Source: Malacoraja senta (taxonomy: Eukaryota). From it: DNA of 64,000 bases. Numbering within the stretch: the first letter of the stretch is position 1; each line of letters begins with the position of its first letter. The notes under the pieces were generated by a model. That model did no database searches and had not been told where the DNA came from. It worked only from the letters and a program-made list of their open reading frames with translations. The position numbers and the translations under genes were made by a program. Location: contig CM075994.1 of assembly GCA_038087875.1 (NCBI GenBank), positions 4,342,001 through 4,406,000 of the forward strand. Direction: 5' to 3'. Of this stretch, positions 3,348 to 63,339 are shown piece by piece.

Positions 3348-3374
3348 AATTGAAGAAACTTCTACAATCTGCCA
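3348..3374 (+). CDS. micro-exon 27 nt (ELKKLLQSA)
   Basis: aatttag|AATTG...GCCA|gtaagt. Confidence 0.75.
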
Positions 3375-63300: not shown

Positions 63301-63339
63301 AACCATCTTTGACTCACAGAGAAAGCTGCGGCCAGCTAA
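3348..63339 (+). CDS. Multi-micro-exon gene (5'-partial) encoding a long predicted coiled coil; about 35 phase-1 exons, mostly 27 or 36 nt
   Basis: Repeated pyrimidine tract + AG / exon / GT(R) units, all multiples of 3 and phase 1, splicing to a stop-free E/K/L/Q-rich peptide (e.g. ...[21 protein letters not shown]...[21 protein letters not shown]...[30 protein letters not shown]...). No start or N-terminal domain in the window. Confidence 0.85.
3985..4011 (+). CDS. micro-exon 27 nt (EMASLLQRL)
   Basis: cccag|AAATG...CTTC|gtaagt; weak pyrimidine tract. Confidence 0.5.
4082..4096 (+). CDS. candidate micro-exon 15 nt (xFHPN)
   Basis: ctccattttag|CATTCCACCCGAATG|gtaaat. Confidence 0.4.
4395..4421 (+). 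CDS. micro-exon 27 nt (VKELLIKDT)
   Basis: ttccatttcag|TGAAA...ACAG|gtaaat. Confidence 0.8.
4580..7500 (-). mobile_element. CR1 LINE, near-complete ORF2 (APE endonuclease + RT), disrupted
   Basis: ORFs 6655-7482 ([21 protein letters not shown]), 5539-6636 ([26 protein letters not shown]) and 4683-5615; short-repeat 3' tail at about 4583. Confidence 0.95.
7842..7862 (+). CDS. candidate micro-exon 21 nt (VKENQSG)
   Basis: catagtcaag|TGAAAG...GGCG|gtaaag; competing AG 5 nt upstream. Confidence 0.35.
8402..8437 (+). CDS. micro-exon 36 nt ([12 protein letters not shown])
   Basis: ctaatttcag|ACCTG...GCTG|gtgagg. Confidence 0.85.
9104..9130 (+). CDS. micro-exon 27 nt (ETTIRQKDS)
   Basis: gattccag|AAACA...TCAG|gtaaac. 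Confidence 0.8.
9205..9400. repeat. (GAT)n microsatellite
   Basis: Direct reading. Confidence 0.98.
9416..9442 (+). CDS. micro-exon 27 nt (AISDQLKNN)
   Basis: aattttcag|CGATC...AACT|gtgagt. Confidence 0.75.
9994..10020 (+). CDS. micro-exon 27 nt (SEKLKEVQT), NAGNAG acceptor
   Basis: ttcaatctcgtag|CAGAG...ACAG|gtgaac. Confidence 0.75.
10480..10975 (+). mobile_element. Penelope-like element 3' fragment
   Basis: Degenerate GIY-YIG C-terminal coding (LEEQxLIF) followed by CTGAAGA...CCCG(c)AAC motif. Confidence 0.7.
11175..11210 (+). CDS. cassette 1, 36-nt exon ([12 protein letters not shown])
   Basis: aacttccag|...ATTG|gtaaga; six homologous copies. Confidence 0.9.
11315..11750 (-). mobile_element. 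Rex1/Babar-like LINE 3' fragment
   Basis: ORF ending HPLH...CSTERHQRS...AIKRYNS plus short-repeat tail. Confidence 0.75.
12556..12582 (+). CDS. cassette 1, 27-nt exon (EKVLQAKDE)
   Basis: ccttctgcgcag|...GAAG|gtgaag. Confidence 0.85.
13169..13204 (+). CDS. cassette 2, 36-nt exon ([12 protein letters not shown])
   Basis: attttcag|...ATTG|gtaaga. Confidence 0.9.
13402..14594 (+). mobile_element. Probable solo LTR inserted in a Penelope fragment
   Basis: Flanked by TAAC direct repeat; TATAAA near 14447, AATAAA near 14524, ends ...CACAACA; 5' TG not intact. Confidence 0.55.
14710..15560 (+). mobile_element. CR1 RT fragment with short inverted piece (about 15485-15560)
   Basis: ORFs 14637-15215 and 15184-15561 with KFADDTK motif. 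Confidence 0.9.
16948..16974 (+). CDS. cassette 2, 27-nt exon (AKVLHSKHE)
   Basis: gttctgtag|...GAAG|gtaaag. Confidence 0.85.
17125..17755 (-). mobile_element. CR1 3' fragment
   Basis: ORF 17204-17710 ([22 protein letters not shown]). Confidence 0.9.
17970..20355 (-). mobile_element. Rex1/Babar-like LINE, 5'-truncated and frameshifted
   Basis: ORFs with [49 protein letters not shown]. Confidence 0.85.
20574..20609 (+). CDS. cassette 3, 36-nt exon ([12 protein letters not shown])
   Basis: aacttctag|...ATTG|gtaagt. Confidence 0.9.
20835..21146 (+). mobile_element. CR1 3' end fragment
   Basis: Degenerate ...[13 protein letters not shown] coding plus 3' UTR. Confidence 0.7.
21150..21542. mobile_element. 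MITE, PIF/Harbinger type
   Basis: Long TIRs TGCCCCTGTCCCACTTAGGAAAC / GTTTCCTAAGTGGGACAGGGGCA; TAA on both sides. Confidence 0.85.
22510..22536 (+). CDS. cassette 3, 27-nt exon (ENVLRSKEE)
   Basis: ttttctgtacag|...GAAG|gtatag. Confidence 0.85.
22784..24091. mobile_element. Non-autonomous TIR element with CpG-rich interior and nested CR1 3' fragment (about 23580-24005)
   Basis: AGCGAGTTCGGTATTCCGA ... TCGGAATACCGAACTCGCT inverted repeats; absent from the sister duplication units. Confidence 0.7.
24738..24773 (+). CDS. cassette 4, 36-nt exon ([12 protein letters not shown])
   Basis: aacttctag|...ATTG|gtaaga. Confidence 0.9.
25803..25829 (+). CDS. cassette 4, 27-nt exon (AKAIHSKKE)
   Basis: atttctgtacag|...GAAG|gtaaag. 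Confidence 0.85.
26726..26761 (+). CDS. cassette 5, 36-nt exon ([12 protein letters not shown])
   Basis: aactttcag|...ATTG|gtaaga. Confidence 0.9.
29038..29064 (+). CDS. cassette 5, 27-nt exon (EKTLRSKVE)
   Basis: ccttttcggtacag|...GAAG|gtaaag. Confidence 0.85.
29987..30022 (+). CDS. cassette 6, 36-nt exon ([12 protein letters not shown])
   Basis: aacttccag|...ATTG|gtaaga. Confidence 0.9.
30972..30998 (+). CDS. cassette 6, 27-nt exon (ETIMRSKDE)
   Basis: tctctgtacag|...GAAG|gtaaat. Confidence 0.85.
32110..32136 (+). CDS. micro-exon 27 nt (ELKQMHQRT)
   Basis: gttgtgcag|AACTT...ACAG|gtaggc. Confidence 0.8.
32684..35586 (+). mobile_element. Complete non-autonomous Helitron
   Basis: A|TC 5' end; 3' hairpin TGGGACCC-aac-GGGTCCCA (35558-35576) then CTAG|T; no TSD. 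Confidence 0.8.
33660..35495. repeat. Complex (GT)n/GTGA/GTAT satellite inside the Helitron; 37-bp and 36-bp tandem arrays at about 33220-33430 and 33477-33560
   Basis: Direct reading. Confidence 0.95.
36077..36103 (+). CDS. micro-exon 27 nt (GRLFQDKMT)
   Basis: attttatag|GCCGA...ACAG|gtaaaa. Confidence 0.75.
36983..37575 (-). mobile_element. CR1 3' fragment splitting the 21-bp minisatellite
   Basis: ORF 37083-37490. Confidence 0.9.
37576..38720. repeat. Degenerate 21-bp minisatellite (consensus about GATGATTTGTCGGGGGCAGCC); further units at about 36895-36980
   Basis: Periodic GATTTGTC every ~21 nt. Confidence 0.9.
38776..38927. repeat. (CA)n microsatellite
   Basis: Direct reading. Confidence 0.98.
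39259..39285 (+). CDS. micro-exon 27 nt (EMSRERLKN)
   Basis: cttgtcctttcag|AAATG...AATG|gtaaca. Confidence 0.8.
39956..39988 (+). CDS. micro-exon 33 nt ([11 protein letters not shown])
   Basis: tgattctcag|ATGAA...AAAG|gtatta. Confidence 0.75.
40606..40632 (+). CDS. micro-exon 27 nt (DRLLMENQA)
   Basis: tctatacag|ATCGA...GCAG|gtaaaa. Confidence 0.8.
41537..41572 (+). CDS. micro-exon 36 nt ([12 protein letters not shown])
   Basis: attttcaaatag|AAATA...CTCG|gtgaga. Confidence 0.85.
42736..42750 (+). CDS. micro-exon 15 nt (ETKSD)
   Basis: aatgttgcag|AAACCAAATCGGATG|gtgagt. Confidence 0.6.
42799..42819 (+). CDS. candidate micro-exon 21 nt (AEDRKST)
   Basis: cttactcacag|CGGAG...ACCG|gtaagt; only 48 nt after the previous donor. 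Confidence 0.45.
43480..44670 (-). mobile_element. Rex1/Babar-like LINE 3' fragment
   Basis: [32 protein letters not shown] motifs. Confidence 0.85.
45698..45733 (+). CDS. micro-exon 36 nt ([12 protein letters not shown])
   Basis: cttctttcgtcag|ACCAA...ATCG|gtgaga. Confidence 0.85.
45896..45922 (+). CDS. micro-exon 27 nt (VELLRMKEK)
   Basis: tttcatccccag|TGGAA...AAAG|gtacat. Confidence 0.8.
48490..48750. repeat. (GT)n microsatellite
   Basis: Direct reading. Confidence 0.98.
49462..49905 (-). mobile_element. Penelope-like element fragment (GIY-YIG endonuclease C-terminal half + 3' region)
   Basis: [35 protein letters not shown]...[13 protein letters not shown]. Confidence 0.8.
51004..51030 (+). 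CDS. micro-exon 27 nt (ELEELRRDD)
   Basis: gtacttcctag|AACTT...GACA|gtaaga. Confidence 0.85.
51740..51760 (+). CDS. micro-exon 21 nt (RKSSHGC)
   Basis: tttttgcttgcag|GGAAA...TGTG|gtaaaa. Confidence 0.5.
52265..52300 (+). CDS. micro-exon 36 nt ([12 protein letters not shown])
   Basis: ttccactttcag|AAGTG...GCAA|gtaaga. Confidence 0.85.
52355..55560 (-). mobile_element. Rearranged CR1 including ORF1 (Cys motif + SGNH-esterase-like domain) and RT pieces
   Basis: CDAC...[12 protein letters not shown]...CLPGA...VHVGTN motifs present twice; RT ORFs 53749-54636. Confidence 0.9.
57081..57107 (+). CDS. micro-exon 27 nt (NTDLQSKQE)
   Basis: cttgccaacag|ATACT...GAAG|gtaaat. Confidence 0.8.
57240..57266 (+). 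CDS. micro-exon 27 nt (ELDQHIKVD)
   Basis: ccttcttaatctag|AACTT...GATG|gtgggt. Confidence 0.75.
57898..57924 (+). CDS. micro-exon 27 nt (EDQIRETQL)
   Basis: gattttacag|AGGAC...TTAG|gtaaag. Confidence 0.8.
   Translation, partial: RTRFARLS
57985..58928 (-). mobile_element. CR1 3' fragment with internal deletion
   Basis: ORFs 58437-58904 (SKYADDTK) and 58156-58461. Confidence 0.9.
59466..61734. mobile_element. Non-autonomous hAT element containing (GT)n and purine-rich tracts
   Basis: Imperfect TIRs CTGTGACGTGCGGT / ACCGCACGACCCTG; 8-bp TSD GTTTCGGG at 59458-59465 and 61735-61742. Confidence 0.8.
62115..62150 (+). CDS. micro-exon 36 nt ([12 protein letters not shown])
   Basis: ttttattcacag|AGCGT...ATCG|gtaact. 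Confidence 0.8.
62856..63250. repeat. Compound (TTAC)n/(TCAC)n microsatellite, expanded tail of a LINE-like fragment (about 62570-62855)
   Basis: Direct reading. Confidence 0.95.
63320..63339 (+). CDS. candidate terminal coding exon (EKAAAS*)
   Basis: ctttgactcacag|AG AAA GCT GCG GCC AGC TAA in phase 1. Confidence 0.4.

What the first reader, a model, noticed from the sequence alone, without database searches (positions are those of the whole stretch)
3348..63339. Hidden micro-exon gene: about 35 phase-1 exons of 27/36 nt encoding a ~340-aa coiled coil
Seen: across 60 kb of TE-rich sequence, AG/GT-bounded islands recur with strongly constrained lengths (21 of 27 nt, 11 of 36 nt). All are symmetric phase 1 and stop-free in the same frame, and they join into an amphipathic E/K/L/Q-rich peptide. 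No ORF finder sees this. Established: chicken BG genes and butyrophilins build cytoplasmic heptad tails from small phase-1 exons (typically 21 nt, some 27 nt). Inference: this may be an elasmobranch counterpart or convergent system using 9- and 12-codon modules. Because every exon is skippable in frame, splicing could tune rod length combinatorially.
Basis: partly seen in the sequence, partly recalled or inferred. Interest (0 to 1): 0.9.

Follow-up and report, generated by a model that had tools for sequence, protein, structure and literature searches.

The report
Hidden micro-exon coiled-coil gene family
This stretch of skate DNA holds the middle of a gene built from dozens of tiny exons that together spell a very long helical rod protein, and it appears to belong to a large family of such genes that gene-finding software misses, lying next to a marker gene of the immune (MHC) region.

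Summary
The window has 35 plus-strand phase-1 micro-exons (20x27, 11x36, 2x21, 33, 15 nt; 342 aa). A generic splice scan finds 27 open 27/36-nt islands, against 5 on the minus strand and 2.1 in shuffles. They are the middle of an 87-micro-exon, ~165-kb gene in a skate-like genome that ends 1.8 kb before nurim, an MHC-region marker. The predicted product is an ~840-aa acidic rod of period 3.5. Exon order is constrained (0 of 300 order shuffles match), and a 36+27 pair (three heptads) is tandemly repeated six times. Single skips keep the frame but break the heptad register, so free combinatorial skipping is unlikely. No Ig-V, transmembrane or B30.2 exon was found in the DNA held, so it is not filed as BG/butyrophilin. 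Similar exons cluster over ~3 Mb on C18 and ~3 Mb on C5. The syntenic interval is an annotation gap in sawfish and white shark and holds giant unnamed models in catshark. No RNA evidence was obtained, and 58 kb upstream is unread. The scan found similar genes before in shark genomes, reported there as ending in B30.2.

The parts
3348..3374 (+). 27-nt phase-1 micro-exon (39 more micro-exons and three putative 5' exons lie upstream of the window)
4395..4421 (+). 27-nt micro-exon
8402..8437 (+). 36-nt micro-exon
9104..9130 (+). 27-nt micro-exon
9416..9442 (+). 27-nt micro-exon
9994..10020 (+). 27-nt micro-exon (tandem acceptor; 24 nt if 9997 is used)
11175..11210 (+). 36-nt exon, tandem unit 1
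12556..12582 (+). 27-nt exon, tandem unit 1
13169..13204 (+). 36-nt exon, tandem unit 2
16948..16974 (+). 27-nt exon, tandem unit 2
20574..20609 (+). 36-nt exon, tandem unit 3
22510..22536 (+). 27-nt exon, tandem unit 3
24738..24773 (+). 36-nt exon, tandem unit 4
25803..25829 (+). 27-nt exon, tandem unit 4
26726..26761 (+). 36-nt exon, tandem unit 5
29038..29064 (+). 27-nt exon, tandem unit 5
29987..30022 (+). 36-nt exon, tandem unit 6
30972..30998 (+). 27-nt exon, tandem unit 6
32110..32136 (+). 27-nt micro-exon
36077..36103 (+). 27-nt micro-exon
39259..39285 (+). 27-nt micro-exon
39956..39988 (+). 33-nt candidate micro-exon (weak splice sites, less certain)
40606..40632 (+). 27-nt micro-exon
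41537..41572 (+). 36-nt micro-exon
42736..42750 (+). 15-nt candidate micro-exon (only 48 nt before the next; less certain)
42799..42819 (+). 21-nt micro-exon
45698..45733 (+). 36-nt micro-exon; homologue in upstream paralogue L035:8280
51004..51030 (+). 27-nt micro-exon; homologue L035:9176 (exon aligns, flanks do not)
51740..51760 (+). 21-nt micro-exon; homologue L035:9774
51855..51881 (+). 27-nt micro-exon with GC donor, donor conserved in two paralogous sites
52265..52300 (+). 36-nt micro-exon
57081..57107 (+). 27-nt micro-exon
57240..57266 (+). 27-nt micro-exon
57898..57924 (+). 27-nt micro-exon
62115..62150 (+). 36-nt micro-exon (13 more micro-exons, G000:C18:4406061-4420652, and the inferred terminal exon at 4425045 follow beyond the window)
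63320..63339 (+). possible alternative terminal exon (five codons, stop; ATTAAA at 63690) or chance acceptor; not the gene's main end

Best explanation
A protein-coding gene missed by ORF-based annotation (G000:C18 ~4,259,300-4,425,300, + strand). It has a putative first exon, two ordinary exons (64 and 132 nt), 87 symmetric phase-1 micro-exons and a short terminal exon. It is the last of a tandem array of paralogues ending at nurim in the MHC-syntenic region of a skate. The product is a soluble ~900-aa protein that is almost all rod: 837 aa, net charge -33, one proline, period 3.5, about 125 nm if fully helical. It most likely forms a parallel coiled-coil dimer that works as an intracellular spacer or tether, as the chicken BG tail and zipper protein do. 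Shown: the exons follow a two-letter grammar. A 12-codon exon (usually register g-abcdefg-abcd) is never next to another 12-codon exon; 12+9 codons make three heptads; rod length has grown by tandem duplication of that pair together with its introns. Inferred: 12+9+9+9 makes four heptads plus a hendecad; selection acts on exon length, phase, order and core positions while surface residues drift or diversify; any regulated skipping should remove 36+27 pairs; this copy is a rod-only member of a family whose other members may end in B30.2, and could heterodimerise with them.
For: Strand, length and phase enrichment. Helical periodicity depends on exon order: 22.3 vs 12.2+-1.6, 0 of 300 shuffles; without the tandem block 19.6 vs 12.5, 0 of 300. 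12-12 neighbours: 0 vs 5.8 expected, P=0.0003. Six homologous 36+27 units; a flank search returned six copies of each exon type, all intact, while introns differ by ~30% with 1.6-1.9 gaps per pair. An upstream paralogue keeps four consecutive exons, including a GC donor, while most flanks no longer align; a third copy lies at C18:3,439,190, control 0. A genome-wide 36-nt exon pattern gave 82 hits (reversed control 44): 27 on C18 3.03-6.08 Mb, 13 on C5 15.47-18.31 Mb, 3 on C4876, 1 on C4004. By-eye translation finds 0 of these 44 with a stop against 16 of the other 38. Neighbours are nurim (94% to Rhinoraja longicauda) and phostensin. No Ig, TM or B30.2 signal in held DNA.
Against: No transcript or protein evidence was obtained, so expression is unshown. 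The 5' exons are read by eye and have no homologue in either open frame. dN/dS in the tandem units is 0.84 (19 codons, 15 non-independent pairs), so amino-acid constraint is weak. The exon list is hand-curated (87 of 126 candidate rows), and one candidate was dropped because its junction gave a stop, so zero stops is partly by construction. Only 9 of 22 modules between 12-codon exons are multiples of 7, so the register is often interrupted or exons are missing. The function is inferred by analogy only.
Confidence: 0.6

Rival explanations
1. The array is the cytoplasmic tail of a BG/butyrophilin-type membrane receptor whose signal, Ig-V and TM exons lie further upstream and splice into the 64- or 132-nt exon.
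For: BG genes have the same tail design and sit in tandem in the MHC (PMC4046983, PMC5938342, PMC8813856 passages). About 58 kb between the upstream paralogue and the scanned DNA (roughly C18:4.125-4.184 Mb) was not read. The V-set search scored only 150 of 1517 candidates.
Against: No Ig motif in 304 kb of held DNA. The 12 TM-like candidate rows in the 24 kb upstream are weak (hydropathy 1.6-1.8) and by eye mostly retroelement sequence. Pfam on 130 plus-strand ORFs gave only retroelement-type domains and one sub-cutoff KA1 hit. A promoter-like first exon with a donor but no good acceptor precedes the array (by eye).
Confidence: 0.12
2. This copy is a recently truncated or dying paralogue of a rod+B30.2 gene; its exons look intact because decay is recent.
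For: The terminal exon (LNDSRGANI, stop) begins like an internal 36-nt exon of a C5 paralogue (LNDSRSALRTL), so it looks like a cut-off internal exon. Earlier AI notes describe shark relatives ending in B30.2; these are leads, not tested support. dN/dS is 0.84.
Against: All 12 tandem-unit exons are intact despite ~30% intron divergence. Poly(A) signals follow the stop. Nurim starts 1.8 kb later, leaving no room for a B30.2 exon.
Confidence: 0.13
3. The plus-strand arrays from C18:3.03 to 4.42 Mb are one giant gene of more than 1.3 Mb with several hundred micro-exons and internal promoters, not tandem paralogues.
For: All 20 pattern hits in 3.03-4.42 Mb are on +. One catshark model in the syntenic run spans 1.18 Mb.
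Against: The same four-exon run recurs at least twice and the GC-donor exon three times. Ordinary-sized exons and a promoter-like site interrupt the array. Other hits on C18 and C5 alternate strands, which requires several genes.
Confidence: 0.13
4. Chance AG/GT islands in repeat-rich DNA.
For: AG/GT islands of every length occur at about 1.5 per length; a few curated exons may be chance.
Confidence: 0.01

Closest known systems
Chicken BG genes and zipper protein (PMC4046983, PMC5938342, PMC8813856; passages read)
   Same: Long coiled-coil region built from many small exons with split codons; tandem same-orientation genes in or by the MHC; varying exon number; a soluble tail-derived form (zipper protein) acts on actin-myosin.
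   Different: BG exons are 21 nt (some 18 or 24), each one heptad long, 13 to about 37 per gene, after signal, Ig-V and TM exons. Here 87 exons of mainly 27 and 36 nt are heptad-neutral only in pairs, and no Ig-V or TM was found.
Butyrophilins / TRIM-B30.2 proteins; enterophilins (the last recalled only, paper not held)
   Same: Heptad region before the C-terminus; MHC-linked. Short phase-1 exons before the B30.2 exon are recalled, not checked. Enterophilin is recalled as a soluble long heptad rod with B30.2.
   Different: Butyrophilins have only a few heptads, Ig domains and B30.2; this gene has about 120 heptads' worth of rod and no B30.2 before nurim.
Schistosoma mansoni micro-exon genes (PMC10526429; passages read)
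   Same: Genes of very short exons, mostly multiples of three, in long introns, hard for automatic annotation, multi-gene family.
   Different: MEGs have 10-20 exons, mostly 15 nt, a signal peptide and proteins of at most 189 aa. This is a vertebrate gene with 87 exons, an ordered heptad rod and no signal peptide seen; the resemblance is convergent.
Unnamed catshark models LOC119976524 to LOC119975530 upstream of nurim (PMC10751288 supplement)
   Same: Same position and strand relative to nurim; spans of 177 kb to 1.18 Mb.
   Different: Only coordinates were seen; homology to this gene was not tested.

Membership tests
BG genes | Signal peptide and single Ig-V exon | tested here: not met
   No Ig motif in held DNA, no Pfam Ig hit; covers 24 kb upstream of the putative first exon, 58 kb beyond that unread
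BG genes | Transmembrane exon before the small exons | tested here: not met
   12 weak candidate rows, by eye mostly retroelement; the 132-nt exon before the array is hydrophilic
BG genes | Tail of many 21-nt heptad exons | tested here: not met
   2 of 87 exons are 21 nt; 51 are 27 and 23 are 36
BG genes | Long heptad coiled coil from small split-codon exons | tested here: met
   Period 3.5, order-dependent
BG genes | Tandem multigene array linked to the MHC | tested here: met
   nurim and phostensin markers. No MHC class I domain on C18 among 88 matches, so linkage rests on these markers
Butyrophilin / TRIM-B30.2 | C-terminal B30.2 (PRY-SPRY) exon | tested here: not met
   None between the last micro-exon and nurim. 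Nearest listed SPRY is C18:4,559,228, beyond nurim and phostensin; only 150 of 696 candidates were scored
Butyrophilin / TRIM-B30.2 | IgV-IgC ectodomain, or RING/B-box head | tested here: not met
   Pfam scan of 130 ORFs; head exons have no family
Schistosome MEG | Most coding sequence in symmetric micro-exons | tested here: met
   837 of about 930 predicted residues (plus by-eye head and tail)
Schistosome MEG | Signal peptide, secreted | tested here: inconclusive
   None seen by eye in the putative 5' exons; 5' end unverified
Schistosome MEG | Isoform diversity by exon skipping | not testable with these tools

The most novel reading that the evidence does not exclude
Elasmobranch genomes hide, in apparent gene deserts beside nurim in the MHC and on a second chromosome, a multi-megabase family with several hundred micro-exons written in a 9/12-codon grammar. 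It makes a repertoire of very long coiled-coil rods, diversified in length by exon-pair duplication and paired skipping. Some rods are tipped with B30.2 sensors and some, like this one, are rod-only partners or decoys. This would be an undescribed diversified immune or germ-line system, and possibly a living relative of the ancestor of BG and butyrophilin tails.
Probability: 0.3. Interest if true: 0.92.

Novelty: new variant of a known kind. Interest (0 to 1): 0.78.

Why it matters
It would turn megabase annotation gaps in the most ancient jawed-vertebrate MHC (0.96 Mb in sawfish, 1.83 Mb in white shark) into a large coding family that ORF-based annotation cannot see. It gives a clean natural example of a coiled coil whose heptad register is encoded by exon order, with a testable rule: skips and duplications should come as 36+27 pairs. 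It also bears on whether the small-exon heptad tails of chicken BG genes and butyrophilins are ancient or convergent.

Tried and rejected
A strict splice consensus missed nearly all exons. No RNA holder listed for window 8300-10000; this is no evidence either way, and no reads were laid. The 132-nt head exon gave no homologue: word search in both open frames, phmmer (two chance repeat proteins), Pfam, Atlas, own-genome DNA and protein searches. The spliced peptide was not searched against any database or folded, so annotated homologues remain unchecked. A degenerate 27-nt pattern was uninformative (2394 hits vs 2939 control), as was a pattern from a recalled B30.2 motif (0 hits). The proteasome and MHC class I searches gave no listed hit on C18, and V-set none among the 150 scored. 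The Atlas did not name the nurim exon; the homologue search did. A second copy of the 5' end 51.5 kb upstream (99.8%) ends exactly at a 200-N gap and is rejected as a probable false assembly duplication. A C-type-lectin neck (CD23/CD209 type) was considered and rejected: no lectin domain or TM. MDC1 and CCHCR1 (recalled human MHC-region genes) were rejected on domain content and exon sizes, from recall. Candidate exons left out include window 61650-61673 (strong sites, not coil-like) and 11384-11410. Literature searches found no description of this family; subscription journals and bioRxiv supplements are not covered.
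Full report
Observation. A scan with generic, recalled splice matrices finds 28 AG/GT islands of 27 or 36 nt on the window's plus strand; 27 are stop-free in phase 1. The minus strand has 8 (5 open), other lengths average 1.5 each, and 100 dinucleotide shuffles give a mean of 2.1 and a maximum of 9. The same excess holds outside the window: 27 islands (26 open) against 2 in the 78 kb upstream, 10 (10 open) against 0 in the 20 kb downstream. 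A 79-kb control beyond the gene has 9 (6 open) against 2, and these are not coil-like.

Extent of the gene. The window is G000:C18:4342001-4406000. From 126 candidate rows of a locus-trained scan I kept 87. I dropped 20 alternative boundaries of kept exons and 19 weak or repeat-borne rows, one of them because its junction made a stop; the 21-nt exon at 51740 was added on paralogue evidence. The set spans C18:4,264,994-4,420,652: 51x27, 23x36, 7x24, 2x21 and one each of 15, 18, 30 and 33 nt, 837 aa, median intron 1.2 kb. Upstream lie a 132-nt exon (4,262,327-4,262,458), a 64-nt exon (4,261,193-4,261,256) and a promoter-like exon with an ATG and a donor at 4,259,511 (read by eye). Downstream an acceptor at 4,425,045 leads to nine codons, a stop and three poly(A) signals. 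Nurim starts 1.8 kb later (best hit 94% to Rhinoraja longicauda, so the animal is skate-like) and phostensin follows at 4,496,319. A 99.8% copy of the 5' end 51.5 kb upstream stops at a 200-N gap and is probably a false duplication.

The product and its grammar. The spliced rod is 56% E/K/L/Q/R, with one proline, no tryptophan and net charge -33. Hydrophobic periodicity peaks at 3.5. It depends on exon order: 22.3 against 12.2+-1.6 when exons are shuffled (0 of 300), and 19.6 against 12.5 (0 of 300) without the tandem block. In 12-codon exons positions 2, 5, 9 and 12 are hydrophobic in 83, 65, 61 and 57% of cases; in 9-codon exons position 4 is (65%) (computed on the near-final list). Two 12-codon exons are never adjacent (0 against 5.8 expected, P=0.0003). 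Module lengths between 12-codon exons are 21 eight times, 39 three times and 30 twice; 9 of 22 are multiples of 7. Only 1 of 85 single skips creates a stop, but only 2 of 87 keep the heptad register, against 41 of 86 adjacent pairs. So the frame permits free skipping and the coil does not.

How length changes. Window 11175-30998 holds six copies of a 36+27 pair with homologous introns. A search with the flanks returns six copies of each, all with intact exons. Introns differ by about 0.30 per site with 1.6-1.9 gaps per pair, exons by 0.22 with no length change, and dN/dS is 0.84 on 19 codons. Length, phase and a few positions are conserved and the surface is nearly free. This is shown for duplication; for splicing it is a prediction.

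A family. A pattern for the 36-nt exon gave 82 hits in the genome (reversed control 44): 27 on C18 between 3.03 and 6.08 Mb (6 in this gene), 13 on C5 between 15.47 and 18.31 Mb, 3 on C4876 and 1 on C4004 identical to a C5 hit. The C18 and C5 clusters have hits on both strands. Translated by eye, 0 of these 44 hold a stop against 16 of the other 38. A 10-kb sample at C18:4,079,001 holds seven micro-exons. Four match window exons 45698, 51004, 51740 and 51855 in order, with the GC donor kept and most flanks unalignable; the GC-donor exon occurs a third time at 3,439,190, control 0. If the pattern catches the same share elsewhere as here (6 hits per 87 exons), the genome holds roughly 600 such exons; this is a rough extrapolation. 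In the supplement of PMC10751288 the interval upstream of nurim has no annotated gene for 0.96 Mb in sawfish and 1.83 Mb in white shark. Catshark has seven unnamed plus-strand models of 177 kb to 1.18 Mb there, the last ending 10 kb before nurim. Reedfish has tRNA genes and DHX16 within 7 kb. That these intervals hold the same arrays is inference; their DNA was not seen.

Domains. No Ig motif occurs in 304 kb of held DNA, and the 12 TM-like rows upstream are weak and by eye mostly retroelement sequence. No B30.2 motif was found. Pfam on 130 plus-strand ORFs around both ends gave only retroelement-type domains and one sub-cutoff KA1 hit. Listed SPRY hits on C18 lie at 4.56, 6.5 and 9.8-11.6 Mb, none inside the arrays, but only 150 of 696 candidates were scored. 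No V-set hit on C18 is among the 150 of 1517 scored and no MHC class I hit among 88. About 58 kb upstream of the scanned DNA is unread. The head exon has no homologue. The spliced protein was not searched or folded.

Mechanism. Most likely (0.6) this is an expressed, soluble, rod-only protein forming a parallel coiled-coil dimer of about 125 nm that acts as spacer or tether; exons, order and duplication are shown, while expression, dimerisation and role are inferred. The rivals are a BG-type receptor tail (0.12), a recently truncated rod+B30.2 copy (0.13) and one giant gene across 1.3 Mb (0.13). For the truncation reading, the terminal exon begins like an internal exon of a C5 paralogue. Three earlier AI notes on shark genomes report similar genes ending in B30.2; I tested that only for this gene, where it fails.

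Comparison and novelty. Chicken BG genes build a coiled-coil tail from 13 to about 37 exons of 21 nt after signal, Ig-V and TM exons, and zipper protein is a tail-derived soluble form (passages of PMC5938342, PMC4046983, PMC8813856). Schistosome MEGs have 10-20 tiny exons and a signal peptide (passages of PMC10526429). Enterophilins are recalled only; the paper was not obtained and none of the 15 listed papers contains the word. The gene works like a BG tail but fails the membership tests. Searches found no description of the family. The main text of PMC10751288 has no occurrence of 'gene desert', 'uncharacterized' or 'butyrophilin' (passages), and PMC12619710 has none of the five terms searched. 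Subscription journals and bioRxiv supplements were not visible. Verdict: real, a new variant of a known kind, interest 0.78, limited by the lack of RNA evidence and by an unverified 5' end.

Noticed in passing
G000:C18:4,259,000-4,425,300 and L035: Non-repeat DNA across the gene is CpG-rich (observed/expected 0.74-0.84; L035 0.74) against 0.52 in the nurim-phostensin region and 0.31-0.58 in seven other loci. This may mark germ-line hypomethylation of the whole cluster and hints at germ-line expression.
   Followed up: partly
G000:C18:4,202,001-4,235,004 vs 4,253,539-4,286,536: A duplicate of at least 33 kb, 99.8% identical, ends at a 200-N gap: probable false tandem duplication in the assembly.
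   Followed up: partly
G000:C5:15.47-18.31 Mb; C4876:72-121 kb; C4004:160 kb: Second multi-megabase cluster of the same exon type on another contig; the C4876 exons are more lysine- and cysteine-rich (by eye).
   Followed up: no
window 42736-42819: 15-nt and 21-nt exons only 48 nt apart sum to 36 nt: a split 12-codon module or a mutually exclusive pair.
   Followed up: no
window 63320-63339 and L035:3478: Acceptors followed by a few codons and a stop inside the arrays; possible alternative terminal exons that would shorten the rod, or chance.
   Followed up: no
window 61650-61673: 24-nt island with strong splice sites but a non-coil peptide, inside a GC-rich insertion; left out of the model.
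   Followed up: no
L010:7648-7673: 26-nt AG/GT island after the last micro-exon: a frameshifted dead exon, an assembly indel or chance (by eye).
   Followed up: no
G000:C2938:644,508-645,131 and 616,873-617,367: MHC class I alpha1 and alpha2 matches lie within single long open frames (502 and 1254 aa), suggesting intronless class I genes.
   Followed up: no
G000:C2:73.95-73.98 Mb: Five tandem proteasome-subunit matches about 8 kb apart, each with an internal stop: tandem processed pseudogene array.
   Followed up: no
window 4683-7509, 14598-15561, 18422-20400, 43622-44723, 53971-54405: Reverse-transcriptase-bearing retroelement ORF fragments (CR1- and Rex/RTE-like by recall) and long CA/GT microsatellites fill the introns; ordinary.
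   Followed up: no
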